Positions 1 to 18,732 of a stretch of DNA of 64,000 nucleotides are shown here, piece after piece; position 1 is the first letter of the stretch; the number at the start of each line of letters is the position of its first letter. Where the stretch lies: contig JACPPR010000030.1 of NCBI GenBank assembly GCA_016190895.1, forward strand, positions 241 through 64,240. The letters are read 5' to 3'. The notes below the pieces were generated by a model. It did no database searches. It was not told where the DNA came from and saw only the letters and a list, made by a program, of their open reading frames with translations. The DNA is from Chloroflexota bacterium. Lineage in GTDB: Bacteria; Chloroflexota; Dehalococcoidia; Dehalococcoidales; UBA2162. The translations under genes were made by a program, and so were the position numbers.

Positions 1-530
1 ACTCCCGGGCTGGCTATCAGGCAGTGAATCACCCGTAGCTCGGTCTCGCCGCACACCTTCAACTTTGAGTCCAGCAGCAGGTCGTACGAGCGGCTGATAC
101 TGCCCTCCAGCGAATTCTCGATAGGCACGATGCCGGTGCTGGCTTCGCCCTGCTCGACAGCCCGGAAAACATCATCCAGGCTTTCACAGGGTTTGACCTG
201 GATGGCGGGGCCGAAATATTGGAAGGCGGCCTCTTCACTGTAGGCGCCGCGTTCCCCCTGGAAAGCGACTATCGTGCCTTCCGCGCTCTTGGCCAGGCTG
301 ATTATTTGCCGGTAGATTTTCTCTACGGCGTCCTGGCTGATGCCTTCTTCCTGAGCGATTTCACGGACGTGTTTCAGGACGGCCTGCTCGCGGGCGCCGT
401 CCTCGATTGGCTTGCCCTGCTTGTGCTTTTCCTCCCCGATTTCCTGGGCGATTTTGACTCGCTCGGCAATTGCCCTGACAATCTCGTGGTCGACATCGTC
501 TATTTTTCCGCGTAGTTCCTCCAGGCTCAT
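1..530 (-). CDS. pheA: Chorismate mutase / prephenate dehydratase (P-protein), N-terminal part; gene continues past window start
   Basis: Not in the ORF track because no stop lies inside the window. Manual minus-strand translation from ATG 530-528 gives [36 protein letters not shown]... (chorismate mutase helix), then ...[23 protein letters not shown] (prephenate dehydratase start). ATGA overlap with the aroC stop. The + ORF 219-515 is its antisense shadow. Confidence 0.8.
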
Positions 531-1618
531 CTTATCACCTCCGGAATCAGTCCTGCCCTCATGGCGAAATCGCACAGGGTGACAGCCATCATCGCTTCCA
601 CCACGGGCACGGCTCGGGGTACGATGCAGGCATCGTGTCTGCCCTTAACTTCGAGGCTGGCGTTTTGCGTGCTTCTCAGGTCAACCGTCTCCTGTTTGCT
701 GGCGATGGAGGGGGTCGGCTTGACGGCAACTCTGAGCGTTAGAGGCATGCCATTGCTGATTCCGCCGAGGATGCCGCCGGAATTATTGGTGGCGGTCACT
801 ATTTTGCCATCCCTGACGGTGAACGGGTCGTTATTTTCTGAGCCTTTCTTGCTCGCGGCTGAGAACCCCGCCCCGAACTCCACCCCTTTAACCGCCGGCA
901 CAGCGAAGAGGGCTTTGGCTAAATCCCCTTCGAGCGTGTCCATTACAGGCTCCCCCAGCCCGGCAGGTATGTTGAGGGCGAAGCCTTCGATAACGCCGCC
1001 GAGGCTATCGCTCGACTCTCTGGCTTGCTCGATTAGCCTTAGCATCTCTTTGGCAGCTTCAGGGTCGGCGCACTTCAGCGGGTCTTTTTCGACATTTTTC
1101 CAGATTTCATCAAGCTCTTTCGACTGTGCCCTGACCCCGCCGATTTCAATGGTGTGGGCAAGAATTTCAACGCCGATGTGTTTGAGAAGTTGTTTGGCCA
1201 CCGCTCCCGCCATCACGAATGTAGCCGTAATTCTGCCGGAGAATCTGCCCCCGCCCCGGAAATCGTTGAAGCCGCCGTACTTGACGAAGGCGGTGTAATC
1301 CGCGTGCCCCGGCCTCGGTATGAAGCGGATGCGCTCGTAGGCGCTGGAATCGGCGTCCCGGTTCCAGGTCAAGAGGCAGACGGGCGCGCCGGTGGTGCGG
1401 CCGTTGAAAATGCCGGAGAGAATTTCCACCTTGTCTTCTTCGGCGCGGGTGGTCGATGCCACGCTGCCTCCCGGTCTACGCTTATCAACCTCTTTCTGGA
1501 TATCTTCGAGCGTGATGGGCAATCCGGCCGGGCAGCCATCGATAACCACGCCGACGCACCGCCCGTGGCTCTCCCCGAAGCTTGTCATCGTGAACAGTTT
1601 TCCTAGGCTATTTGCCAT
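527..1618 (-). CDS. aroC: Chorismate synthase
   Basis: 363-aa ORF with [28 protein letters not shown] and GGGRFSGR motifs; operon context. Confidence 0.95.
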
Positions 1619-2870
1619 CTAACTTCACCTCCCCGCCGATGCTTTTCAGGGTACCCCAGTATTCCGGATAGGTCTTCGAAACACATTCGGCGTCTTGAAT
1701 TACGGTGCCGCCTGTCACCACGCCCAGCAGGCTAAAAGCCATAGCGATGCGGTGGTCGCCGCGCGTGTCAATTTCGGCGCCTTTTACGCGCGAACCTGTT
1801 ATGGTCAATTTGTTTTCTTCTTCTACGACCTTGATGCCCATTTTTGTCAGGCCTTCGGCAAGGGCGGAGGGGCGGTCGGATTCTTTGATGCGTGCCCGGG
1901 CGATGCCGGTGAGTTCGCTCGTTCCTTCCGCCGCCGCGGCCAGGACAGCTACCGTCGGCAGCAGGTCAGTGCAATCGGTCAGGTCGGCTTTGAGCGCCTT
2001 GAGTTTCGACTTATGGACTATGACCGAGTCATTCTTGATTATAATGTCAGCCCCCATATCTCTCAGGAAATCGGCGATTGCCTTGTCTCCCTGCAGACTG
2101 GCGGGGTTCAGGTTGGTTACCTCTATTTCGCCGCCCAGCGCCCCCGCCGCCAGCAGGTAGGAGGCTGAAGACCAATCGCCTTCGACAAGATACTTCGCCG
2201 GCTTGTAGCTTTGTTTCTTAATCTTATATTCGCGGAAATCAGGGGAAGCCTCGACTTTGATGCCGAACTTCTCTAGGCTCTCGATTGTCATCTGGACGTA
2301 AGGCTGTGATTCTAGGTGGGTGGTCAGCCTGATGGTCATACTCTCTTCGGCAAAGGGCGAGATGAGCAGCAACGCGGAGACGTACTGGGAGCTGATGTTG
2401 CCAGGCAATTCTGTAGTGCCCCCCCTCAGCCTCCCGCCCCGGACCACGATGGTCTTATCTGCTTCCTGTTTACAATCGATGCCCAGTTGCTGCATTGCCT
2501 GGATGAGCGGGTCGATGGGCCGGCGGGCGAGGGAGGGGGCGGCGGTGAGGTGACAGCGCCCCGGGATGAGCGCGCAGATGGCGGTCATAAACCTGAGCGT
2601 CACGGCGGATTCGCGGCAGAAGAGGTCACCCGAAGGCGCATTGAAATTGCCCCCGCCCACCCGCCAGCCATCTTCGTCTTCGGTGACGCTGACGCCAATC
2701 TTGCCCAACACATCCCTGGCGGCTTCGGTGTCATCTGAGCCGAGGGGATTAACTATCCGGCTTTCGCCCTTAGCCAGGGCGGCGCAAAGCACCCCGCGAA
2801 GCGTGTAGCTTTTGGAGGGCGGGGCGCTTACCCTGCCTTTTATGTCACTTTTTGAAATCGAAGCTTTCAT
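1608..2870 (-). CDS. aroA: 3-phosphoshikimate 1-carboxyvinyltransferase (EPSP synthase)
   Basis: 420-aa ORF with [32 protein letters not shown] and GDHRIAMAF; 11-nt overlap with aroC. Confidence 0.95.
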
Positions 2871-3402
2871 TCTCTTTCAGCCCGGCTATTATTTCTTCAA
2901 CCACGCCCTCGATGTCCAGTTTCGAGGTGTTAATCATAATATCTGCGGAGCGCTCGTAATATGGTTTCCTGAATTGTAGCATATCTTTGATTGTTTGCAG
3001 CGGGTCTTTCACATCGAGCAGCGGACGCTGCCCCTGCTGAAGCGCCGTCCGCTTCAGGATTGTTTGCGCCGAGGCCGTCAGGCAGACTATCACGCCGCGC
3101 TCTCTGAGGCGGTCGATGTTTATCTTGTTAAGAACAACGCCTCCGCCGCAGGCAATCACGGCGTTCTTTTCCATAGCGATTTGCCTCACGGCTTCTATTT
3201 CAAGCTCCCTGAAGGCTATCTCGCCGTCCTCACGGAAAACTTCAGGTATCTTCTTGCCGGCGAGCTGCTCGATAAGCCAGTCCACCTCGAAGAACCGCAT
3301 ATCCAGTTTCTCAGCCAGCCGCCTGCCGACGGCCGTCTTGCCGGTGCCCATGTAGCCTATGAGGGCGATGTTGGTTTTCAATCTGAAATCCCTCTCATCC
3401 AT
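2845..3402 (-). CDS. aroK: Shikimate kinase
   Basis: The track ORF 2845-3564 is inflated at its N-terminus by read-through of an intergenic repeat. Start placed at ATG 3402 (MDERDFRLKTNIALIGYMGTGKTAVGRRLA, Walker A). Overlaps the aroA start by 26 nt. Confidence 0.88.
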   Translation of the reverse strand: MDERDFRLKTNIALIGYMGTGKTAVGRRLAEKLDMRFFEVDWLIEQLAGKKIPEVFREDGEIAFRELEIEAVRQIAMEKNAVIACGGGVVLNKINIDRLRERGVIVCLTASAQTILKRTALQQGQRPLLDVKDPLQTIKDMLQFRKPYYERSADIMINTSKLDIEGVVEEIIAGLKENESFDFKK

Positions 3403-3410
3403 ATCCAGGG

Positions 3411-3491
3411 AAAATCCCTCTGTATCTCTCTTTACGAAAGGGAGAGGCCGGGGCTCTCCCCCTTTGTCAAAGGGGGATAAAAGGGGGATTT
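3411..3491. mobile_element. MITE-like repeat family 1 (TIR AAATCCCYC / GRGGGATTT, internal CCCTTTnnnAAAGGG hairpins), copy a
   Basis: Fills the aroE-aroK spacer. Hairpins at 3427-47 and 3456-78. Confidence 0.8.
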
Positions 3492-3494
3492 GGT

Positions 3495-4358
3495 TTAGGA
3501 ATCTCCCAGAAGCTTTAATGCCTCCGCCTTCATCAACTCCACCGGCGCTTTCTGTCCGGTCCACTTTTCAAAAGCCAAAGCTCCCTGCCAGACGAGCATA
3601 TCGAGGCCGCTGATGGTCTTGCAGCCGGCGGCTTCTGCTTCCCGCAAGAGCCTGGTCTTGACCGGATTATAGACAATGTCATAGACGACTAGCCCCGGTT
3701 TCAGCAACTCGGCGGGCACCGGCGTTTCATCAGATTTCGGACTCATGCCAACCGGTGTGGCGTTGACCAGAATTTCGGTTTTCGCCAAAGTTTTCGCGAG
3801 GTTCCCCGGCGAAAGCTCTAAAGCGGCTACTGAGCTACCGAAAGTCTGCGAAATCCGGTCGGCTAAGTCCTTCGCCCTGTCTTGCTGGCGGTTAAGGATT
3901 ATCAGATTAGCTCCGCGCTCAGCCAGGATGAACGATATGCCTCTCGACGCCCCACCCGCCCCCACCAGCGCGACATTGTTCCCCTTCGGCTCGATGCCAG
4001 ATTCCAGCAACGGCTGGAGAAAGCCGGTGGCGTCTGTATTGTAGCCGGTCAAGACTCCATCATCATTGACGATGGTGTTGGCCGCGCCGATTTTCTCAGC
4101 CAGTGGGTCGAGCCTGTTCAGCAGCTTCATAACAGCCACCTTGTGCGGGATGGTGACATTCAGCCCCCTCATATTCAAAGCCCGCATTCCGGCAATGGCC
4201 TTATCAAGCTCTGTTCCTTTTACCCTGAAGGAGACGTAGACATAGTCCAGCCCGAGCTTCGCGAAGGCGGCGTTGTGCATCGCCGGGGACATCGTGTGCT
4301 CGACCGGGTCGCCGATGAGGCCACAGACCCTCGTTTTACCTGAGATGTTGGTTGTCAT
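3495..4358 (-). CDS. aroE: Shikimate dehydrogenase
   Basis: 287 aa with GLIGDPVEHTMSPAMHNAAF, GYNTDATGF and VGAGGASRG. Confidence 0.93.
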   Translation of the reverse strand: MTTNISGKTRVCGLIGDPVEHTMSPAMHNAAFAKLGLDYVYVSFRVKGTELDKAIAGMRALNMRGLNVTIPHKVAVMKLLNRLDPLAEKIGAANTIVNDDGVLTGYNTDATGFLQPLLESGIEPKGNNVALVGAGGASRGISFILAERGANLIILNRQQDRAKDLADRISQTFGSSVAALELSPGNLAKTLAKTEILVNATPVGMSPKSDETPVPAELLKPGLVVYDIVYNPVKTRLLREAEAAGCKTISGLDMLVWQGALAFEKWTGQKAPVELMKAEALKLLGDS

Positions 4359-5092
4359 TTTCTAACCTTGTCTATAATCGCGATATATTGGGAATCGTTA
4401 TGGTCAATGTATCTACCGACCTGCCATCCCGTCCCATCGAGAATATTTTCCATTTCCTTTTTTGAGACCATAAGGTAGTCGAACCACGGTCCGATATATT
4501 GCTTGTACCTCACTCTAATTCTTATTTGTCCGGACATCCGGCCTTTCCTCCGGTTCGATTCCTGGTAGGCCAGGTGTTCGGGGTTTTCCGTCCGGTAAAC
4601 GTCACGGCTCGAAGTGATTATTCTCCCGTTCTTGGAGGTTATCTTATCGAGTTTCTTTAGCAGCCGTTTTGCGCCCTCGAAACTACCGAACAGCCCGAAG
4701 TTATTGCCCATCATGAGAACTGTATCAAAAATGCCCATCCTGGAGCTTATCTGACTTATAGGTATTATCCTGGCGTCTTTCACTCCCCTCAGTTTACAGA
4801 CCTCGATTGCCAGAGGGGAATTATCTATCGCTGTAACCTCCAGTCCTTTCTCCTGAAGATAGAGAGAACATCTGCCGGCACCTGAGCCTATGTCCAGGGC
4901 TCTACCCCGAGCATATCTCATCGCTTTTCTCTCAGAAGGCACCCAGCCTTTGTATTCGCTAAAGTATGCTTTGGGCCCGCCCGATGTATCAATGTATCTA
5001 TCATCTTTTTCGATGATTTCCGCAGTATCTATCCGTCCTCTAAAATAATCATATACTCCATGCCCAAAGGCATCCTGTTGGTTTGTTAACAT
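4355..5092 (-). CDS. Class I SAM-dependent methyltransferase (substrate unknown) embedded in the shikimate operon
   Basis: 245 aa; motif I ALDIGSGAGR, post-I EVTAIDNS; 4-nt overlap with the aroE start; visibly AT-richer than flanking genes. Confidence 0.75.
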   Translation of the reverse strand: MLTNQQDAFGHGVYDYFRGRIDTAEIIEKDDRYIDTSGGPKAYFSEYKGWVPSERKAMRYARGRALDIGSGAGRCSLYLQEKGLEVTAIDNSPLAIEVCKLRGVKDARIIPISQISSRMGIFDTVLMMGNNFGLFGSFEGAKRLLKKLDKITSKNGRIITSSRDVYRTENPEHLAYQESNRRKGRMSGQIRIRVRYKQYIGPWFDYLMVSKKEMENILDGTGWQVGRYIDHNDSQYIAIIDKVRK

Positions 5093-5135
5093 CTTTTGTC
5101 TCCAAGTTGAAGTCGTTTTCCGCCATTACTGATAG

Positions 5136-5792
5136 TCACGGCGATATCATCCCGTATATTTCTGTCAGTTCTTTTACCGTTATCTGCCCAGGGGCGGATT
5201 CTTTGCCACGCTCGATGGAGGCGTAGGTGAAGTCGGCGCCGGCGAGCGGGCTGAGCACACGGCTGATTCGCCCCTCCTGCCCCATAGCGAAAGAGACTAT
5301 CTTGTTCTCCCGAAACTCGGAGACCAAACGAAGCACCGCCAGGTTATCTTCGAATGCTCTGGCCGTGGTAACTACTTTACAGATATCGGCACCGGCTTTT
5401 AGCTGCTTCTGGACTATCCCCTTCAGTTCTTCGAAGGGCGGCGTTTTCTCCAGGTCGTGGAAGGAAAGGATGCACTTTGCCCGCTTCTTGACCATCGGGA
5501 CGATATTTTCGAGGTTCTTTGTCCTGAGTTCGATATCCACGAACGCGGCCCCAAGCTCGATAGCCAGCAGCAGCGACTCGATGCGCCGTGCTTCGGTGCC
5601 CTGCCATTTACCCCCCTCATCGGGTGTCCGGTTGGTGGCAATCCAGGGCTTCTTCAGTTGCCTGGCCAGCTCTTGCCAGCCGTCGCCAATCATGTCTATT
5701 CGGACCTCGAAGAGGTCGGCTAGAGGCTCGACCTCCTTGACGGCCTTAAGGTCGGTATTGACTATAGCGGCGCAGATTCTTGGTTTATCCAC
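5136..5792 (-). CDS. aroD: 3-dehydroquinate dehydratase, type I
   Basis: 218 aa with FEVRIDM, ILSFHD and VSFAMG context; 8-nt overlap with the aroB stop. Confidence 0.88.
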   Translation of the reverse strand: MDKPRICAAIVNTDLKAVKEVEPLADLFEVRIDMIGDGWQELARQLKKPWIATNRTPDEGGKWQGTEARRIESLLLAIELGAAFVDIELRTKNLENIVPMVKKRAKCILSFHDLEKTPPFEELKGIVQKQLKAGADICKVVTTARAFEDNLAVLRLVSEFRENKIVSFAMGQEGRISRVLSPLAGADFTYASIERGKESAPGQITVKELTEIYGMISP

Positions 5793-6891
5793 TCGTGGTG
5801 ACCTCAGTGGAACCCTTCCAGTCCCTCAGAACCTCTTCTACCAGAGACGGATTTACTTCGTCAGTAATGAGTACCTCACCTATCTTTTTCGGCAGGACGA
5901 ACTTTATCTTGCCCGCGACAATCTTCTTATCGTGCTGCATTGCCTGCATCAGCGCTTTTGCGGGCAGGGAGGGGATGTGGGTGGGCAGGCCGGCGGCGGC
6001 GATGACTGTTTCTAGTCGGTCTAGCTCTTTTGTGCTTAGCTTGCCCAGCCGGTTCGAGATATCTGCCTCAGCCAGCATACCGATGGCAACCGCCTCACCG
6101 TGCCAAATTTTTAGCCCCGAGACCGATTCAATGGCGTGCCCGACAGTATGGCCGTAGTTCAGGATATTTCTCAGCCCGAGGTCAAGCTCGTCTTTCTCCA
6201 CCACTCCGGCTTTGATTGCCGCCGAGCGGGCGACAACTTTTTCCAGCACAGGCTCATCGAGCGCTCGTATTTTAGCCAGGTTCTTCTCAAGATAGCTGAA
6301 AAACTCGCCATCCAGGATTACCCCATGTTTGATTATCTCGGATAGTCCGTCGCTAAGCTCCCGTTTAGACAGGGTTTTCAGGGTGCTGACATCGGAGATG
6401 GTCAGGCGCGGGTGATAGAAAGCCCCGACCATATTCTTCAGCTTGCCGTGATTCACGGCTGTTTTCCCGCCGATGCTGCTGTCCCCCTGTGAGAGCAGGG
6501 TGGTCGGTATTTGTATCAAGGGCACCCCCCGCATATAGGTAGCGGCGACAAAGCCGGTGAGGTCGCCGATGACCCCGCCCCCCAGCGCGAGAATAGGCGT
6601 GTTCCTTTCGGCAAAGAAGTCGGTCAGCTGGTAGTAGAGCCGGCCCGCCGTCTCCAGTGATTTCTGCTCTTCCCCCGGAGGAACATCGATAAGGAGCGCC
6701 TCGAAGCCGCTATCAGTAAGGCTCTGCTTAAGAGCATCGCCGTAGAGTGTCTTCACTCTGGAATCGGTGATGATAACCGCTTTGCCGGTGAAGCCCAGTT
6801 CTCGCAATCGGGCGCCGGTCTGGGACAGCAAACCCGACCCGATAATGATATCGTAGCTATTACGGCTGAGTTTTACAGAGACTTTTTCCAT
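5785..6891 (-). CDS. aroB: 3-dehydroquinate synthase
   Basis: 368 aa with GGGVIGDLTGFVAATYMRGVPLIQIPTT and NYGHTVGHAIE. Confidence 0.94.
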   Translation of the reverse strand: MEKVSVKLSRNSYDIIIGSGLLSQTGARLRELGFTGKAVIITDSRVKTLYGDALKQSLTDSGFEALLIDVPPGEEQKSLETAGRLYYQLTDFFAERNTPILALGGGVIGDLTGFVAATYMRGVPLIQIPTTLLSQGDSSIGGKTAVNHGKLKNMVGAFYHPRLTISDVSTLKTLSKRELSDGLSEIIKHGVILDGEFFSYLEKNLAKIRALDEPVLEKVVARSAAIKAGVVEKDELDLGLRNILNYGHTVGHAIESVSGLKIWHGEAVAIGMLAEADISNRLGKLSTKELDRLETVIAAAGLPTHIPSLPAKALMQAMQHDKKIVAGKIKFVLPKKIGEVLITDEVNPSLVEEVLRDWKGSTEVTTSG

Positions 6892-6932: not shown

Positions 6933-6963
6933 AAACGAAAGAACCCTCCGTCTGGGAGGGTTC
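6933..6963 (-). terminator. Intrinsic terminator (attenuator) between the aro leader peptide and aroB
   Basis: Minus strand: GAACCCTCC-cagac-GGAGGGTTC followed by TTTCGTTT; 41 nt upstream of the aroB ATG. Confidence 0.55.
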
Positions 6964-6992
6964 TTTAACTTTTTCAAATCACTGGCTGTCCT

Positions 6993-7082
6993 TTAGCTCA
7001 AAACCTCCCCCGCGGCACATAGCAGTGCCGTAAACGAGAAATAGGTAGTATACATTTTGGGGGCGGCAATTTGAGCTAACAT
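6993..7082 (-). CDS. Candidate aromatic (Tyr/Phe-rich) leader peptide of the aro operon
   Basis: Below the ORF-track size cutoff; read manually. SD AAGGAA lies 6 nt before the ATG. Product is 29 aa, MLAQIAAPKMYTTYFSFTALLCAAGEVLS, with 2 Tyr + 2 Phe codons within 7 codons. It is embedded in alternative-pairing segments upstream of a terminator. Confidence 0.45.
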   Translation of the reverse strand: MLAQIAAPKMYTTYFSFTALLCAAGEVLS

Positions 7083-7105
7083 GGCATTTCCTTAATGTTA
7101 CGTTT

Positions 7106-7134
7106 AATCTAACATAACGCTCTGGCCTTGTCAA
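7106..7134 (-). promoter_or_regulatory. Sigma70-like promoter for the aro leader/operon
   Basis: Minus strand: TTGACA (7134-7129), 17-nt spacer ending in TGT, then TAGATT (7111-7106). Confidence 0.5.
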
Positions 7135-14238: not shown

Positions 14239-14439
14239 ATGCCAAAGATTAAAACTCACAAGGGGGCGCAAGCCCGTTTCCATATTACAGGCACCGGCAA
14301 ACTGATGCGGATTAAAGGCCCGAAGAGCCACCTGCGCAGTCATAAAGCCAAGCGGGTTAAGGGTCTTTTCGATAGCAAGATTCCGGTAAGCGCCGTCGAT
14401 AGGGCGCGCCTTAAGAGACTCTTACCCTACGGTGTATAA
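14239..14439 (+). CDS. rpmI: 50S ribosomal protein L35
   Basis: MPKIKTHKGAQARFHITGTGK... Confidence 0.95.
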   Translation: MPKIKTHKGAQARFHITGTGKLMRIKGPKSHLRSHKAKRVKGLFDSKIPVSAVDRARLKRLLPYGV

Positions 14440-14482
14440 TAACGCGGGTTTTATCCCGTGCAGATAGAAAAAGGAGATTACC

Positions 14483-14842
14483 TTGCCAAGAGTAAAAAGG
14501 GGCGTTACAGCCCGTCACCGACATGCGAAGATACTGGAGCTAACCAAGGGCCACCGGGCGACCAAACATAGCCTGTATCGCCGCGCCCATGAATCGATGC
14601 TTAAGTCATTGAGCTATGCCTTCGCTCATCGCCGCGAGCGCAAGGGCGATATGAGGCGTCTCTGGATAACCCGGGTCAATGCCGCCAGCCGGGCTAACGG
14701 ACTTACCTACGGTCAATTCATCGAAGGTCTGAAGAAGTCAGGCATCGAGGTTAACCGCAAGATGTTGGCCGATATGGCCGTCAGGGAACCTGCAGCCTTC
14801 GCCAGCCTGGTTACTACGGCTAAAGCTAAAGTAGAGGCATAA
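14483..14842 (+). CDS. rplT: 50S ribosomal protein L20
   Basis: [18 protein letters not shown]...; TTG start after SD AAGGAG. Confidence 0.95.
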
Positions 14843-14901
14843 TGCTGAATATGAAAGTCTCCCTCCGATTTAAGACGAACTTCATGTTTACGGAGCGCTG
14901 A
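14842..14901 (+). CDS. Candidate pheM-like Phe leader peptide
   Basis: Read manually. The ATG overlaps the rplT stop (TAATG); SD-like AGAGG at 14833-37. Product is 19 aa, [19 protein letters not shown], with 3 Phe in 7 codons. It occupies the same position as E. coli pheM. Confidence 0.45.
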   Translation: MLNMKVSLRFKTNFMFTER

Positions 14902-14972
14902 GGCGCTTGGGGGAGGCTTTGACACGGTAAATTAGCTCTTTAAGACTGAATATCCGAAAAAATAATTGCCAG

Positions 14973-14997
14973 AACCCTCCCAACGGAGGGTTTTTTG
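14973..14997 (+). terminator. Intrinsic terminator 25 nt upstream of the pheS ATG
   Basis: AACCCTCC-caac-GGAGGGTT followed by a T-run. Confidence 0.7.
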
Positions 14998-15021
14998 GTA
15001 ATAGAGGCGAAAGGTAAATAG

Positions 15022-16149
15022 ATGTCAGAACAACCGGAACAACTGAAAATAAAGGCGCTGCAAGAACTCGAGGGCGTTACCAGTGCGGATAAACTGGAAC
15101 AATGGCGGGTGCGCTATCTGGGCAGGAAGGGGGAACTGACCCTGATTCTGCGCAGCCTGGCCGAATTGCCTCCCGATGAGAGGAAAACGCTGGGGGCGCG
15201 CGCCAACCAGACCAAGGTCAGTTTGGAAGAGGCGTTGAAACAGAAAGAGCAGGTTATCAAGGAGGCGCAGCTAGTTGCCGCCAAAAAAGGCGGCATAGAT
15301 ATCACCCTGCCCGGCCGCCCTCTCCCGGCCGGCCGCCTGCACCCGATTACTCAAACCCTGCATGAAATTTGCGATATTTTTTCGGCGATGGGCTTTCAGG
15401 TGGTGGAGGGGCCTGAGGCTGAGTGGGACTATTACAACTTCGAGGCGTTGAACATACCTCCGGAACACCCGGCGCGGGACACGCAATCGACATTCTGGAT
15501 TGCTCACGGTACAGGCAACAGGGAAAAGAGCGCTTCAGTCAACACTGGCACAATCGGGGCTGTCTCTCCTTCGGTCAGGTACGAGATGGAGGGTGGGGAA
15601 AAGCCGATGCTGCTGCGCACCCAGACCACTTCGGTCACCGCCCGCACAATTGCCGAGGTCGGCGAAGGGAAGAGGCAATTGCCCATAATGGTGGTCGAGC
15701 CGGGCAAGGTCTACCGCTATGAAGCTACTGATGCCACTCACGGCTGGATGTTATACCAGATTGACGGATTGGTGGTGGACAAGCATATCACGATGGCCGA
15801 CCTGAAGGGCGCTCTCTATGAGTTCGTCCACCGCTATTTCGGGGCTGATAGGAAGGTGCGCTTCCGCGCTGACTACTTCCCCTTCGTCGAGCCGGGCGTT
15901 GAGGTCGCCATTGAATGCGCTATCTGCCGAGGTGATGGCTGCCGGCTTTGCGGCGATAGCGGCTGGATTGAAATTGCGGGTGCTGGTATGACTCATCCTG
16001 ATGTTCTGAGACGGGGAGGTATTGACCCGGATGTTTACACCAGCTTTGCCTTTGGTATGGGTGCCGACCGTACAGTGATGCTGCGTTATGGCGTCGATGA
16101 CATCCGTTTATTCTACGGCAGCGATTTAAGATTTTTGAGGCAATTCTGA
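15022..16149 (+). CDS. pheS: Phenylalanine--tRNA ligase alpha subunit
   Basis: 375 aa with [25 protein letters not shown] and [16 protein letters not shown]. Confidence 0.95.
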
Positions 16150-16168
16150 GAGGACGCTGAAGGGCGCC

Positions 16169-16299
16169 GGTCTCCCCTTTGAAAAAGAGCCTGTCCCGTG
16201 CTCGACACGGGACTAAGGGGGATTTAAGGTCCCAAAATCCCTCTCTTTCTCCCTTTTCCAAAGGGAGATGCCTTATTAGGGGAAGGGTCAGGAGGGATA
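16169..16299. mobile_element. Family 1 repeat, copy c (two abutting partial units)
   Basis: Lies in the pheS-pheT spacer. Confidence 0.7.
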
Positions 16300-16332
16300 G
16301 GTTACAAGTAATTTTAGTAAGTGGTGGGATAA

Positions 16333-18732
16333 ATGAAAATCTCGTTGAAATGGCTAAAAGAATATGTGGATATCGCTCTGCCGGCTGAAGAGCTGGCTCA
16401 TAAGCTGACTATGGCCGGCTTTGAGGTCGAGGGGATGCGGGTCATCGGCGGCGGCTGGGACAACGTCGTTATCGGCAAAATACTGGCGATAAATCCTCAC
16501 CCCAACGCCGACCGCCTTACCCTGCCCACCATAGATTTAGGCACCGAGCAGGTGACCGTGGTCTGCGGGGCGCCTAACCTGAAGGTGGGTGTTAAGGTTT
16601 CCTATGCCCGAGTCGGCGCCCAACTGATAGATGCCCATACCGGCCAGGTAGCCACGCTGAAGGCGGCCAAGATTCGCGGCATCGCCTCTAACGGCATGCT
16701 CTGCTCAGAAAGGGAGCTGGGAATTTCGGATAGCCACACAGGCATCCTGACTTTGCCGGATGACGCTCCTCTTGGCATGCCTCTGGCTGATTACATGGGG
16801 GATGTCATACTGGATGTCACTATCACGCCCAACCGGCCTGATTGCCCCTCCGTCATCGGTATTGCCAGGGAGGTCGCCGCGCTCACCGGCCAAAGCCTGC
16901 ACATCCCTGAAATTAGCTACCAGGAAGCCGGTCCTTCCATAGAAGGGCAGGTAGGCTTGGCAATTAGAGCGCCCGACCTCTGTCCCAGATACTGCGCGAG
17001 CTTGGTCACCGGAGTCAAGCTCGCTGAATCTCCGGTCTGGATGCAGCATCGCCTGCAGGATTGCGGAATGCGCCCGATAAACAACATCGTTGACATCACC
17101 AACTACGTTATGCTGGAATACGGTCAGCCCTTGCACTCCTTCGATTTTGAAAGAATCCGGGGCAAAAAGATTATTGTCCGCCGGGCAAACCACGGCGAAG
17201 TCCTGATAACGCTGGATGGGGTGGAGCGGAAGCTCTCCCCGGATATGCTGGTCATTGCCGATGAAGACCGCGCCGTGGCGGTGGCGGGAGTGATGGGCGG
17301 GGCTAATACGGAAGTGACCGGGAGCACCACCACTATCCTGCTGGAAGCGGCCAGCTTTAATCCGGCCAGTATCCACTATACCGGACGGACGTTGGGTCTG
17401 CCCAGCGAAGCCTGTACGCGCTTCGAGAGGGGCATCAGCGCCGGCATGACGATGCCCGCCCTGAAACGGGCTACCCAATTGCTTGTCGAGCTGTGTGGTG
17501 GGGTGGCGGCTAGAGGCATCGAAGAAGCCTACCCCGGCAAGACGGAGCGGGCGCCGCTTTCGTTATCGGCCGGGGATGTCAACCGGATTCTCGGCTCTGA
17601 TTTTAGCCTTGAGCAGATAAACAACGCCCTGACCTCGCTTGGATTCGAGTGTAAACGAATAGATTCGTCTCTTCTGGTTGCGACACCATACTGGCGCAGC
17701 GATATCCGCCTGACTGTCGACCTTATCGAGGAGGTCGCCCGTGTTATCGGCTACGACCAAATCCCGATGACCATGCCAGTCCAACCCCTGAACAAGCCCG
17801 CCCCGACTCCCATCATCGGCCTGAAGCGCAATGTGAGCCAGATTCTGACAGGGCTCGGCTTCCAGGAGATAATCACCTACTCTCTGACCAGTCTGGAAAC
17901 GATGAATAATTTGTCAGCCGCTGCTCAGCCTGCTGAGCCGTCGCTGCTGCGCCTGGCTAATCCGATGACCTCCGAGCAGGAGTATCTCCGGCCCAGCCTG
18001 AGAGCTAGTTTGCTGGCTGCTGTCGCCGCCAATCGAAGGCACGAGGATAGCGGCATCTGGCTTTTTGAGTTGGGCAAGGTTTACCTGCCCCGAAACAATA
18101 ATTTGCCCGATGAGAGAGAAACGCTCTGTGCTATTATGAGCGGGCCGGCTGTTGAGAAATCCTGGCACGGCGAGGGCCGGGCCCCTGATTTCTTCGAGGC
18201 GAAGGGGGTAGTGGAGAGCTTACTCTGCCGGTTGGGTATCACCGCAAGTTACGAACCGGCCTCAGATGAGAGCCTCAACTCAGCCGAGCAGGCGGCTATA
18301 GTTATGGATGGCGCCAGGGTCGGCGTTCTGGGCAAGTTGCATCCTGATGTTCTGGAGCGGTTTGAAATTACCGAGTCTGCCTATCTCTTTGAAATCGACC
18401 TGCCCGCTCTGCTCCGGTTCGTCGTCGGAGATAAATTGTACCGGCAGATTCCCCGCTTCCCCGCCGTGGTCAGGGACGTGGCGCTGGTAATCGATGCTGA
18501 TGTAGCCCACCAGAGACTAGTAGATATCATCAAGAGCTTCCCCCTGGTTGAGAAGGTCGTCCTTTTCGATGTCTATTCGGGCGGGCAGGTGCCCCAGGGC
18601 AAGAAGTCCCTCGCCTACCGCATTACCTTCCAGTCGCGTGAGCACACCCTGACCGATAGTGAGGTGAATACTGTCCAGCAGCAAATCCTGGAGAGGCTGG
18701 GTGGGGAGTTAGGGGCGGGGTTGAGGGGCTGA
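16333..18732 (+). CDS. pheT: Phenylalanine--tRNA ligase beta subunit
   Basis: 799 aa. N-terminal MKISLKWLKEYV tRNA-binding domain; B3/4, B5 and C-terminal FDX-ACB-like region. Confidence 0.95.
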   Translation: MKISLKWLKEYVDIALPAEELAHKLTMAGFEVEGMRVIGGGWDNVVIGKILAINPHPNADRLTLPTIDLGTEQVTVVCGAPNLKVGVKVSYARVGAQLIDAHTGQVATLKAAKIRGIASNGMLCSERELGISDSHTGILTLPDDAPLGMPLADYMGDVILDVTITPNRPDCPSVIGIAREVAALTGQSLHIPEISYQEAGPSIEGQVGLAIRAPDLCPRYCASLVTGVKLAESPVWMQHRLQDCGMRPINNIVDITNYVMLEYGQPLHSFDFERIRGKKIIVRRANHGEVLITLDGVERKLSPDMLVIADEDRAVAVAGVMGGANTEVTGSTTTILLEAASFNPASIHYTGRTLGLPSEACTRFERGISAGMTMPALKRATQLLVELCGGVAARGIEEAYPGKTERAPLSLSAGDVNRILGSDFSLEQINNALTSLGFECKRIDSSLLVATPYWRSDIRLTVDLIEEVARVIGYDQIPMTMPVQPLNKPAPTPIIGLKRNVSQILTGLGFQEIITYSLTSLETMNNLSAAAQPAEPSLLRLANPMTSEQEYLRPSLRASLLAAVAANRRHEDSGIWLFELGKVYLPRNNNLPDERETLCAIMSGPAVEKSWHGEGRAPDFFEAKGVVESLLCRLGITASYEPASDESLNSAEQAAIVMDGARVGVLGKLHPDVLERFEITESAYLFEIDLPALLRFVVGDKLYRQIPRFPAVVRDVALVIDADVAHQRLVDIIKSFPLVEKVVLFDVYSGGQVPQGKKSLAYRITFQSREHTLTDSEVNTVQQQILERLGGELGAGLRG

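What the first reader, a model, noticed from the sequence alone, without database searches (positions are those of the whole stretch)
14842..14997. pheM-like Phe leader peptide and four-segment attenuator between rplT and pheS
The gene order thrS-infC-rpmI-rplT-(leader)-pheS-pheT is the same as in E. coli, where the pheM leader peptide attenuates pheST.
- Leader peptide: a 19-codon sORF at 14842-14901. Its ATG overlaps the rplT stop as TAATG, with SD-like AGAGG at 14833-37. It encodes [19 protein letters not shown], with Phe codons at 14869, 14881 and 14887.
- seg1 AAAGTCTCCCTC (14854-65) pairs with seg2 GGGGGAGGCTTT (14909-20), giving 12 bp including 2 G-U pairs.
- Alternatively, GGGAGG of seg2 (14911-16) pairs with CCTCCC (14976-81) of the terminator 5' arm.
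- The terminator AACCCTCC/GGAGGGTT plus a T-run ends 25 nt before the pheS ATG. pheS therefore has no room for its own promoter and must be read through.
Caveat: only stalling at the first Phe codon clearly masks seg1.
Basis: partly seen in the sequence, partly recalled or inferred. Interest (0 to 1): 0.7.

Follow-up and report, generated by a model that had tools for sequence, protein, structure and literature searches.

The report
Phenylalanine-sensing leader-peptide attenuator before pheST
A short upstream reading frame with three conserved phenylalanine codons, followed by a switchable terminator hairpin, sits between rplT and pheS in this Dehalococcoidia (Chloroflexota) genome and most likely raises phenylalanyl-tRNA synthetase expression when charged tRNA-Phe runs short; it is a classical mechanism in a phylum for which I found no published example.

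Summary
Alone, the window's 19-codon sORF is weak evidence (about 3% chance of three or more Phe codons).

Comparative evidence:
- Thirteen distinct homologous leaders upstream of pheS in related Dehalococcoidia keep the reading frame. Indels come in threes, and the other two frames contain stops.
- They keep the start codon and the F-x2/3-F-x-F codons.
- Ten of the twelve aligned leaders keep a stop (TGA, TAA or TAG) in the loop of a small hairpin.
- They keep the terminator and an 8-11 bp antiterminator.
- Several relatives have their own promoter upstream of the sORF, so the terminator must be conditional there.

Second copy: a paralogous leader lies in the same window upstream of the aroB-aroC shikimate operon. 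Its sORF carries Tyr and Phe codons (YTTYFSF), and relatives conserve this as YYTYFSF and YYFYFSF. The regulatory codons therefore track operon function.

Comparison with known elements:
- Rfam has no matching family, and no T-box is present.
- A covariance model built from these leaders hit only the pheM and pheL attenuators in 224 kb of E. coli. It missed thrL, trpL, hisL and ilvL.

Verdict: a new member of a known kind (ribosome-mediated attenuation). Interest is moderate, and there is no experimental proof.

The parts
14483..14842 (+). rplT (ribosomal protein L20, TTG start). Its stop codon TAA (14840-42) overlaps the sORF start as TAATG.
   Evidence: NCBIfam TIGR01032, E = 2e-43; sequence. 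The same TAATG overlap occurs in L097 and L176.
14833..14837 (+). Shine-Dalgarno-like AGAGG, 4 nt before the sORF ATG.
   Evidence: Sequence. Purine-rich stretches precede the sORF start in most homologues.
14842..14901 (+). Leader sORF of 19 codons plus stop: [19 protein letters not shown].
   Evidence: Conserved as an ORF in 12-13 homologues: the distance from start codon to hairpin P2 is 51, 54 or 57 nt; this frame has no stop, while the other two frames have stops in 10 and 9 of 12 sequences.
14869..14889 (+). Regulatory region with Phe codons TTT 14869-71, TTC 14881-83 and TTT 14887-89.
   Evidence: Phe2 and Phe3 are kept in 12 of 12 homologues. Phe1 is kept in 11 of 12, as TTT or TTC. 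The codons between them vary freely.
14854..14865 (+). Segment 1 (AAAGUCUCCCUC), the 5' arm of helix P1. It pairs with segment 2.
   Evidence: 87% of alignment cells paired for this helix.
14893..14908 (+). Hairpin P2: GAGCGC, loop UGAG, GCGCUU. The sORF stop codon UGA (14899-901) lies in the loop. The 3' arm also contributes to the antiterminator.
   Evidence: 97% paired. TGA, TAA or TAG occupies the same loop position in 10 of 12 homologues.
14907..14920 (+). Segment 2 (UU + GGGGGAGGCUUU). It pairs either with segment 1 (P1) or with segment 3 plus the terminator loop (antiterminator).
14926..14970 (+). Variable linker. A possible bridging helix P3 (GGUAA 14926-30 with UUGCC 14966-70) would bring segments 2 and 3 together.
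   Evidence: GGUAA/UUACC is conserved only in the closest subgroup. It is not in the window's minimum-energy fold. Weak evidence.
14973..14996 (+). Intrinsic terminator: segment 3 AACCCUCC (14973-80), loop CAAC, segment 4 GGAGGGUU (14985-92), with the U-run ending at 14996.
   Evidence: 96% paired. The pattern CCCTCC-N3-8-GGAGGGTT occurs at only two places in the window, against 0 expected.
15022..18732 (+). Regulated genes pheS (15022-16149) and pheT (16333-18732). A GAAAGG Shine-Dalgarno lies at 15009-14.
   Evidence: NCBIfam TIGR00468 and TIGR00472. No promoter-like site lies in 14700-15100.
7106..7134 (-). Promoter of the paralogous aro leader: TTGACA, 17 nt, TAGATT, with TG before the -10.
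   Evidence: 10 of 12 matches. The same TG-N-TAGA(C/T)T -10 precedes many pheS-type leaders.
6993..7082 (-). aro leader sORF MLAQIAAPKMYTTYFSFTALLCAAGEVLS*. The Tyr and Phe codons lie at 7052-7032.
   Evidence: Relatives: L169 ..TTYYTYFSFT.. and L170 ..KIYYFYFSFT.., with synonymous TAT/TAC and TTT/TTC changes.
6938..6966 (-). aro leader terminator AAAGAACCCUCC-CAGAC-GGAGGGUUCUUU.
   Evidence: The whole leader matches the pheS-leader profile: nhmmer E = 7e-11; covariance model 59.8 bits, E = 4e-12.
527..6891 (-). Shikimate operon downstream of the second leader: aroB, aroD, an unknown ORF, aroE, aroK, aroA, aroC.
   Evidence: NCBIfam.

Best explanation
The element is a ribosome-mediated (leader-peptide) transcription attenuator that senses charged tRNA-Phe and controls read-through into pheST.

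Where transcription and translation come from (inferred). In this genome, transcription arrives from the infC-rpmI-rplT unit. A ribosome finishing rplT at TAA can restart at the overlapping ATG, or initiate from the AGAGG Shine-Dalgarno, and translate the 19-codon sORF.

Phe plentiful (inferred). The ribosome runs to the stop codon in the loop of hairpin P2.
- While it sits there it covers GCGCUU and the start of segment 2.
- After release, P1 (segment 1 with segment 2) and P2 re-form.
- Either way segment 3 stays free, the terminator (segments 3 and 4 plus the U-run) forms, and RNA polymerase stops 25 nt before pheS.

Phe-tRNA scarce (inferred). The ribosome stalls at codon 10, 14 or 16.
- At codon 10 it physically covers segment 1.
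- At codons 14 and 16 its leading edge melts P2 and it sterically hinders P1.
- GCGCUU plus the GGGAGG of segment 2 is then free to pair with CCUCCC plus the terminator loop. This 8-11 bp antiterminator (9 bp with a bulge in the window) blocks the terminator, so pheST is transcribed.

Shown versus inferred. The conserved ORF, the conserved cognate codons and the mutually exclusive helices in all homologues are shown in silico. The ribosome geometry, the coupling to RNA polymerase and the response to Phe are inferred.

Second copy. A paralogous leader with its own promoter and Tyr/Phe codons would work the same way on the aro (shikimate) operon.
For: 1. The sORF behaves as a real reading frame across 12-13 homologues whose pheS proteins are 57-84% identical.
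- The start is ATG or GTG.
- Indels come only in multiples of three.
- This frame is open, while the other two frames carry stops in 10 and 9 of 12 sequences.
- The stop codon changes among TGA, TAA and TAG at the same loop position.

2. The Phe codons are the conserved part of the peptide, while neighbouring codons vary. TTT/TTC exchange occurs at Phe1.

3. The codons match the operon's function in two paralogues. pheST leaders have Phe only. aro-operon leaders have YTTYFSF, YYTYFSF and YYFYFSF, with synonymous TAT/TAC and TTT/TTC changes.

4. The alternative structures are present in all homologues.
- The terminator state is 93.4% paired across the alignment, against 41-64% for slid controls.
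- The antiterminator state is 90.9% paired, against 39-63%.
- With segment 1 and the 5' arm of P2 masked and segment 4 not yet transcribed, the minimum-energy fold pairs segment 2 with segment 3 in all 12 homologues.
- Antiterminator duplex energies are -13 to -22 kcal/mol.
- The terminator-loop letters vary (AGGC, GAGC, AAGC, AAC) yet keep pairing with GCUU or UU. One pair shows four pair types.

5. Several relatives have a strong promoter upstream of the sORF: L163 TTGACA-17-TATACT (11 of 12), L167 TTGACA-18-TAGACT, and the window's aro leader. There the terminator lies between a promoter and the gene it serves, pheS or aroB. It must therefore be conditional.

6. No promoter-like site lies between the terminator and pheS in the window.

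7. A covariance model of the family picks out only the two experimentally established Phe attenuators, pheM (29.4 bits) and pheL (23.6 bits), in 224.5 kb of E. coli. That stretch also holds thrL, trpL, hisL and ilvL.
Against: - There are no expression data of any kind.
- The sORF has only three non-consecutive Phe codons. In the single window sequence that is weak (P about 0.03).
- The window's antiterminator is the weakest in the family: -15.7 kcal/mol, and 98 of 1000 shuffled partners do as well.
- True compensatory changes are few, because the four segments are almost invariant. The structural support is therefore mostly conservation.
- Exceptions exist. L165 has Leu (TTG) at Phe1. L168 and L077 have lost the stop in the P2 loop and stop later, inside segment 2.
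- The U-runs of the aro-type terminators are poor.
- Whether transcription and translation are coupled in Dehalococcoidia is unknown.
- The simple terminator scanner does not call the window's hairpin.
Confidence: 0.78

Rival explanations
1. It is a constitutive leaky terminator. The hairpin simply ends most rplT-operon transcripts and lets a fixed fraction through, setting the ratio of ribosomal protein to synthetase. The sORF is incidental.
For: Many other Dehalococcoidales have a plain GC-rich hairpin plus T-run in the rplT-pheS spacer, 10-30 nt before pheS, with no sORF and no promoter. The window's full-length minimum-energy fold is the terminator state.
Against: It does not explain the conserved reading frame, the Phe codons or the stop position. 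It does not explain the conserved antiterminator. It does not explain the relatives, or the aro paralogue, in which the same terminator sits directly downstream of a dedicated promoter.
Confidence: 0.08
2. It is a structured leader RNA that binds a factor, such as uncharged tRNA in a T-box-like way, PheRS itself, ribosomal protein L20, or another RNA-binding protein. That factor, not a translating ribosome, chooses between terminator and antiterminator.
For: The four segments and the UUYA motifs are conserved at the nucleotide level, as in protein- or ligand-binding leaders. Covariation is too sparse to exclude extra tertiary structure.
Against: No T-box or other Rfam family reaches threshold here or upstream of pheS in 20 related loci. 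The ORF signatures are not expected for a non-translated leader: indels in threes, frame-specific absence of stops, three stop-codon types at one position, and synonymous Phe and Tyr changes. The leader occurs without rplT in many relatives, which argues against L20 feedback. The codon identity changes with the operon, Phe versus Tyr plus Phe.
Confidence: 0.07
3. The sORF encodes a functional small peptide, or serves only to pass ribosomes on towards pheS by translational coupling or reinitiation. The hairpins are unrelated stabilising structures.
For: The TAATG overlap with rplT suggests coupling. Leader ORFs have been proposed to increase translation of downstream genes (PMC4833913).
Against: The sORF stop lies 120 nt before the pheS ATG, with a terminator in between. 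Apart from the Phe codons and the residues encoded by stem nucleotides, the peptide sequence is not conserved. No NCBIfam match was found for the four family peptides long enough to test, the window's 29-aa aro peptide and three from relatives. The window's own 19-aa pheS-leader peptide is below the tool's 20-residue minimum and was not tested.
Confidence: 0.03

Closest known systems
E. coli pheM leader peptide and pheST attenuator
   Same: - The position is the same, between rplT and pheS in the order thrS-infC-rpmI-rplT-leader-pheS-pheT.
- Both have a short ORF with Phe codons, a purine-rich segment 2 (GGAGGCU), and a CCUCC...GGAGG terminator followed by a U-run.
- The covariance model built only from the Dehalococcoidia leaders gives pheM as its best hit in 224.5 kb of E. 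coli: 29.4 bits, rough E = 1.6e-4, full model length.
   Different: - The peptides are not alignable: [14 protein letters not shown] has 5 Phe in 14 residues and a run of them; the window has 3 spaced Phe in 19.
- The sequence-only search matches only the 32-nt terminator, at 11.5 bits.
- E. coli has a 122-nt gap after rplT and 283 nt between pheM and pheS. From textbook knowledge, not tested here, E. coli also has an rplT terminator and a dedicated pheST promoter in that gap. In the window the sORF overlaps the rplT stop and the terminator ends 25 nt before pheS.
- Here the Phe codons lie downstream of segment 1 rather than inside it, and an extra hairpin (P2) carries the stop codon.
E. coli pheL-pheA attenuator (Rfam RF01859, Phe_leader)
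   Same: It uses the same logic and a similar CCUCC/GGAGG terminator. It is the second-best hit of the family model in the E. coli sample, at 23.6 bits. It is also the top sub-threshold Rfam hit for the window's aro leader, at 24.7 bits.
   Different: The matches fall far below Rfam's gathering score of 55 bits: 17.3 bits for the pheS leader (terminator only) and 24.7 bits for the aro leader. It regulates a biosynthetic gene rather than a synthetase. pheL has a run of 7 Phe codons.
Leader-peptide attenuators of aminoacyl-tRNA synthetase genes outside Proteobacteria (Streptomyces trpS and leuS; Bacillus hisS paralogues)
   Same: These are classical attenuation of a synthetase gene by cognate codons in a phylum where it was not expected (PMC1262725; PMC2965389).
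   Different: The phylum, the amino acid and the sequence family all differ. None of them is described for Chloroflexota in the papers I could search.
T-box leaders of pheS in Firmicutes and other phyla
   Same: They have the same regulatory target and the same output, a choice between terminator and antiterminator.
   Different: T-boxes sense uncharged tRNA directly, are about 200-300 nt long and need no ORF. No T-box match was found in the window or in 20 related loci.

Membership tests
Ribosome-mediated (leader-peptide) transcription attenuators (trpL/pheL/hisL class) | A short ORF with a start codon and ribosome-binding site in the leader, maintained as an ORF. | tested here: met
   The start is ATG or GTG, with purine-rich sequence upstream, in all homologues. 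The distance from start codon to P2 is 51, 54 or 57 nt. The frame is open in 11 of 12 (the L077 exception is a start-alignment artefact), against stops in 10 and 9 of 12 for the other two frames.
Ribosome-mediated (leader-peptide) transcription attenuators (trpL/pheL/hisL class) | [quoted passage not shown] | tested here: met
   Three Phe codons are conserved before pheST (12/12, 12/12 and 11/12). Tyr plus Phe codons are conserved before the aro operon in three genomes.
Ribosome-mediated (leader-peptide) transcription attenuators (trpL/pheL/hisL class) | An intrinsic terminator (GC-rich hairpin plus U-run) between the sORF and the first structural gene. | tested here: met
   Window hairpin at 14973-92 with the U-run ending at 14996. 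It is conserved and 96% paired. The scanner calls the homologous hairpins in L163 and L167 but not the window copy.
Ribosome-mediated (leader-peptide) transcription attenuators (trpL/pheL/hisL class) | An antiterminator that shares a strand with the terminator, plus an upstream helix (1:2) that competes with it. | tested here: met
   The 2:3 pairing is the minimum-energy structure in 12 of 12 homologues once segment 1 is masked and segment 4 is absent. It is 90.9% paired in the alignment. P1 is 87% paired. This is in silico only, and covariation is sparse.
Ribosome-mediated (leader-peptide) transcription attenuators (trpL/pheL/hisL class) | Regulatory codons positioned so that a stalled ribosome prevents the 1:2 pairing, and a stop codon positioned so that a finishing ribosome prevents the 2:3 pairing. 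| tested here: inconclusive
   Phe1 lies 4 nt after segment 1, so a ribosome with Phe1 in its A site would cover segment 1. Phe3 lies 4 nt before the 5' arm of P2. The stop lies 4 nt before GCGCUU and 8-10 nt before segment 2. This fits if standard ribosome footprint sizes are assumed, but that assumption is an inference.
Ribosome-mediated (leader-peptide) transcription attenuators (trpL/pheL/hisL class) | Read-through rises on starvation for the cognate amino acid and depends on translation of the leader. | not testable with these tools
   The sequence comes from an uncultured metagenome-assembled genome. No transcript data are available.
E. coli pheM leader (as a homologous family) | Detectable sequence or structure homology to the pheM leader RNA or peptide. 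| tested here: inconclusive
   The covariance model gives 29.4 bits with a rough E of 1.6e-4, and pheM and pheL are the only hits in 224.5 kb of E. coli. nhmmer matches only the terminator, at 11.5 bits, and the peptides are dissimilar. This is a resemblance; common descent is not shown.
Rfam RF01859 Phe_leader | A score at or above the curated gathering threshold of 55 bits. | tested here: not met
   17.3 bits (E = 2.3, terminator only) for the pheS leader. 24.7 bits (E = 0.06) for the aro leader.
T-box riboswitch | A match to the T-box covariance model (Stem I specifier loop plus the T-box antiterminator bulge). | tested here: not met
   No hit at gathering score in the window or in 20 related loci. 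No T-box appears among the E <= 10 hits in 14700-15100.

The most novel reading that the evidence does not exclude
The Dehalococcoidia pheST and aro attenuators and the proteobacterial pheM and pheL attenuators may be one evolutionarily related Phe-attenuator module, related by descent or by horizontal transfer. On this reading the module has been moved between operons and re-targeted by swapping codons. Three arrangements are seen here: Phe codons only before pheST; Tyr plus Phe codons before the shikimate operon; and either a dedicated promoter or fusion onto the rplT stop codon. The window's two copies would then be a snapshot of how attenuators duplicate and change specificity.
Probability: 0.2. 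Interest if true: 0.7.

Novelty: new member of a known kind. Interest (0 to 1): 0.5.

Why it matters
- Classical leader-peptide attenuation is textbook biology for Proteobacteria and has been predicted in Actinobacteria and a few Firmicutes. I found no report of it for Chloroflexota, and Rfam has no model that recognises this element.
- It gives a regulatory annotation for pheST and for the shikimate operon in an uncultured Dehalococcoidia lineage.
- It implies that these organisms couple translation to transcription closely enough for attenuation to work.
- It provides a clean natural pair of paralogous attenuators whose regulatory codons differ with operon function. That pair is useful for studying how such switches evolve and for building a new covariance-model family.
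- It does not change our understanding of the mechanism itself.

Tried and rejected
- Rfam at gathering thresholds found nothing in the whole window. At E <= 10 it gave only chance-level hits, such as the sroH and Phe_leader terminator portions.
- T-box or other known leaders upstream of pheS in 20 related loci: none. The only hit was a stray partial 16S rRNA match in L037.
- Genome and metagenome collection scans with PheS returned 160 loci, but none was more than 69% identical. Most lack the leader; they carry plain terminators and/or promoters next to pheS. The informative relatives came from the protein database plus contig look-ups.
- L20 autoregulation was rejected, because the leader occurs without rplT and with its own promoter in many relatives.
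- An internal promoter using the conserved TTGAC after segment 2 (perfect TTGACA at 14919-24 in the window). The -10 is poor in the window, is not conserved, and is not called by the scanner. Only L163 reaches 9 of 12. Kept as a minor possibility.
- A promoter overlapping the terminator tail (TGGTAATAG at 14996-15004). It lacks the conserved final T of a -10 and is not called by the scanner.
- A bridging helix P3 (GGUAA/UUACC) is conserved only in the closest subgroup, so it is not a family feature.
- MAFFT misaligns L097 and L165 by one column around segment 2. This slightly lowers the pairing counts.
- The sORF peptides of 20 aa or more have no NCBIfam match.
- Literature searches for Chloroflexi or Dehalococcoidia attenuators and leader peptides found nothing relevant.
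Full report
**Observation.** The window carries thrS, infC, rpmI, rplT, pheS and pheT on the + strand. All were confirmed by NCBIfam equivalog models. The rplT stop TAA (14840-42) overlaps an ATG (14842-44), and AGAGG lies 4 nt upstream. The ORF 14842-14901 reads [19 protein letters not shown], with Phe codons at 14869, 14881 and 14887.

ViennaRNA folds 14842-14999 into three elements:
- a small hairpin enclosed by it, at 14893-14908 (P2), whose loop holds the sORF stop codon;
- a hairpin AACCCUCC-CAAC-GGAGGGUU running into U6, which ends 25 nt before the pheS ATG.

The energy is -50.9 kcal/mol and z = -3.4. Taken alone it is only suggestive. Three or more Phe codons in 18 has P of about 0.03, and 6.6% of comparable sORFs in the window have that many. 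The simple terminator scanner does not list the hairpin.

**Source organism and first comparison.** PheS-based scans of the genome and metagenome collections returned 160 loci, almost all labelled Dehalococcoidales, Dehalococcoidia or Chloroflexota, at 55-69% PheS identity. In these the rplT-pheS spacer ranges from overlap to 1.8 kb. Typically it holds a plain GC-rich hairpin plus T-run. That hairpin is followed either directly by pheS or by a strong TTGACC-17-TATAAT promoter next to the pheS start. No leader ORF is evident in the ones I read, so the leader is not a general feature of the order.

**Closer relatives carry the same leader.** The protein database held PheS sequences 70-84% identical to the window's. 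Their contigs, plus a profile search of all fetched loci, gave 13 distinct homologous leaders. Their peptides are:

| Locus | Leader peptide |
|---|---|
| window | [19 protein letters not shown] |
| L097 | MLNLIVSLQFKNFTFTER |
| L176 | MLNPIASTQFKNFTFTER |
| L161 | MLNQRASQFNTFTFMQR |
| L163 | (GTG start) QNIAASRQFKNFTFTER |
| L165 | MQYTASHELKSFIFTGR |
| L168 | MLNTTASHQFKTEFTFTERCRRFGGL |
| L167 | MSTYSASLRFNINFMFTKR |
| L081 | MRHYIVSYQFNTNFMFTRR |
| L009 | MSVYRASLWFNTNFIFTKR |
| L002 | MSLCEVSRHFKVNFIFKER |
| L001 | MIYNTSCKFNLNFIFNGR |
| L077 | MMNEIENLNRQFAAEFTFPVRHWRVGG |

**Evidence that the sORF is translated.**
- The distance from the start codon to P2 is 51, 54 or 57 nt, so indels come in threes.
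- The sORF frame has no stop in 11 of 12 aligned sequences. The exception, L077, is an artefact of where its start codon was aligned. The other two frames have stops in 10 and 9 of 12.
- The stop sits in the P2 loop in 10 of 12 and appears as TGA, TAA or TAG. In the two sequences that lost it, the frame ends a few codons later, inside segment 2.
- Phe2 (TTC) and Phe3 (TTT) are invariant. Phe1 is TTT or TTC in 11 of 12 and Leu (TTG) in L165. The codons between them vary at all three positions.

**The terminator must be conditional.** L163 has TTGACA-17-TATACT (11 of 12 matches) about 20 nt upstream of its sORF. L167 has TTGACA-18-TAGACT. L009, L002, L001 and L077 show the same TG-N-TAGACT -10. 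In several of these, rplT is not the upstream neighbour. In those genomes the terminator lies between a dedicated promoter and pheS. A terminator there cannot be a mere operon end. In the window, and in L097, L161, L165, L168 and L176, the leader is instead joined directly to rplT. Three of these share the TAATG overlap. No promoter-like site lies between the terminator and pheS.

**Alternative structures.**
- On the 12-sequence alignment, P1, P2 and the terminator are 93.4% paired, against 41-64% when partners are slid by 1-3 columns.
- The antiterminator pairs CGCUU-GGGAGG (the P2 3' arm plus segment 2) with CCUCCC plus the terminator loop. It is 90.9% paired, against 39-63% for the slid controls.
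- I masked everything up to 13 nt past Phe3, to mimic a stalled ribosome, and truncated before segment 4, to mimic a polymerase that has not yet made it. The minimum-energy structure then contains the segment 2:3 helix in all 12 homologues. In L009, L002 and L001 that helix remains the minimum-energy structure even with segment 4 present.
- Antiterminator duplex energies are -13 to -22 kcal/mol. The window's is the weakest, at -15.7, and 98 of 1000 shuffled partners do as well.
- Compensatory changes are rare because all four segments are nearly invariant. That is expected when each strand must fit two partners, but it means the structural case rests mainly on conservation.
- One informative detail: the terminator-loop letters vary (AGGC, GAGC, AAGC, AAC) yet always pair with GCUU or UU. 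One pair shows four pair types. A simple loop would have no reason to behave this way.

**A second copy in the same window.** The leader profile also hit 7082-6935 on the minus strand: nhmmer E = 7e-11 and covariance model 59.8 bits, E = 4e-12.
- The copy has a promoter, TTGACA-17-TAGATT.
- Its sORF is MLAQIAAPKMYTTYFSFTALLCAAGEVLS*.
- It has the same P1, P2, antiterminator and terminator layout and the same CCCUCC...GGAGGGUU terminator. That pattern occurs only at these two places in 64 kb, against 0 expected.
- Downstream lie aroB, aroD, an unknown ORF, aroE, aroK, aroA and aroC.

AroB relatives carry homologous leaders. L169 encodes ..RTTYYTYFSFT.. and L170 encodes ..RKIYYFYFSFT.., with synonymous TAT/TAC and TTT/TTC changes. 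L169 and the pheS leader L176 come from the same genome, RBG_16_51_9. The regulatory codons therefore follow operon function: Phe for the Phe-tRNA synthetase, and Tyr plus Phe for the common aromatic pathway. I regard this as the strongest single argument for a ribosome-sensing mechanism over a protein- or ligand-binding RNA.

**Proposed mechanism.** This is inferred from the anatomy.
- With ample Phe-tRNA, the ribosome reaches the stop in the P2 loop. There it shields GCGCUU and the start of segment 2. After release, P1 and P2 re-form. Either way the terminator forms.
- With scarce Phe-tRNA, a ribosome paused at codon 10 covers segment 1.
- A ribosome paused at codon 14 or 16 melts P2 and hinders P1.
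- In both paused cases GCGCUU-GGGAGG is released to pair with CCUCCC plus the loop, so the terminator cannot form.

**Comparison with known systems.**
- Rfam has no family at threshold. Phe_leader scores 17.3 bits for the pheS leader and 24.7 bits for the aro leader, against a gathering score of 55. No T-box is present.
- E. coli K-12 has the same gene order, with pheM ([14 protein letters not shown]) 122 nt after rplT and 283 nt before pheS.
- I built a covariance model from the 12 Dehalococcoidia leaders and ran it over 224.5 kb of E. coli containing thrL, trpL, hisL, ilvL, pheL and pheM. It hit only the pheM attenuator (29.4 bits, rough E = 1.6e-4) and the pheL attenuator (23.6 bits). The next best score was 13 bits.
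- The sequence-only profile finds only the pheM terminator, at 11.5 bits.
- The element therefore works like, and looks like, the proteobacterial Phe attenuators. Common ancestry is neither shown nor excluded.
- The papers I could search describe classical attenuation of synthetase genes in gamma-proteobacteria (pheST) and Streptomyces (trpS, leuS), and leader peptides in a few Firmicutes (PMC1262725, PMC2965389). I found nothing for Chloroflexota.

**Verdict.** It is a new sequence family and a phylum-level extension of a well-known mechanism, with a paralogue on the aro operon. Interest is moderate. All functional statements remain predictions until transcript 3' ends and codon-swap reporters are tested.

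Noticed in passing
window 6935-7134 (minus strand), upstream of aroB 6891-5785: A paralogous leader-peptide attenuator with its own promoter. Its sORF is rich in Tyr and Phe codons (YTTYFSF), and it precedes the shikimate operon aroB-aroD-?-aroE-aroK-aroA-aroC. It is conserved in L169 and L170, and its terminator is present in L174.
   Followed up: yes
E. coli loci L175 5151-5267 (-) and L179 7588-7725 (+): The covariance model built only from the Dehalococcoidia leaders picks out the E. coli pheM and pheL attenuators. It does not hit thrL, trpL, hisL or ilvL in 224.5 kb. Phe attenuators in two phyla share CCUCC/GGAGG terminator arms. Whether this is homology or convergence is unresolved.
   Followed up: partly
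L005, L007, L008, L010, L015, L024, L027, L030, L031, L037, L049, L059 (rplT-pheS spacers): Many other Dehalococcoidales have a terminator after rplT and then a near-consensus TTGACC-17-TATAAT promoter. In several of them the promoter ends only about 7-12 nt before the inferred pheS start, which would give a leaderless or nearly leaderless pheS mRNA.
   Followed up: partly
L034, L039, L041, L048, L053, L055, L072 (rplT-pheS spacers): These relatives have a plain hairpin, UCCCCUUCCC...GGAAGGGGA, plus a T-run 10-30 nt before pheS. They show no sORF, no visible antiterminator and no promoter. How pheST gets transcribed there is unexplained; a leaky terminator is one possibility.
   Followed up: no
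window 16150-16332: The spacer between pheS and pheT is unusually long (183 nt) and contains several perfect hairpins, for example GTCCCGTGCTCGACACGGGAC at 16193-16213. In L161 pheT starts 2 nt after pheS.
   Followed up: no
L169 959-973: In the RBG_16_51_9 aro leader the sORF ATG starts only 6 nt after the -10 hexamer TAGATT. This leader peptide may be translated from a leaderless transcript.
   Followed up: no
window 14411-14440: A promoter-like site, TTAAGA-18-TATAAT (10 of 12 matches), overlaps the end of rpmI just upstream of rplT, which starts with TTG. It could be an internal promoter feeding rplT and the leader.
   Followed up: no
window 4355-5092 (minus strand): A 245-aa ORF inside the aro operon, between aroD and aroE, has no NCBIfam match. 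At the equivalent position L169 has a weakly methyltransferase-like gene.
   Followed up: no
L037 100-471: A partial match to bacterial 16S rRNA (101 bits, model positions 53-355 only) lies about 2 kb upstream of rplT in a MAG chromosome (CP070842). It may be an rRNA fragment or an assembly artefact.
   Followed up: no
window 14919-14924; L163 1905-1933: The conserved TTGAC just after segment 2 is a perfect -35 hexamer in the window. In L163 it forms a 9-of-12 promoter-like site with CAAAAT. The -10 is not conserved, so this is probably just the base of helix P1.
   Followed up: partly
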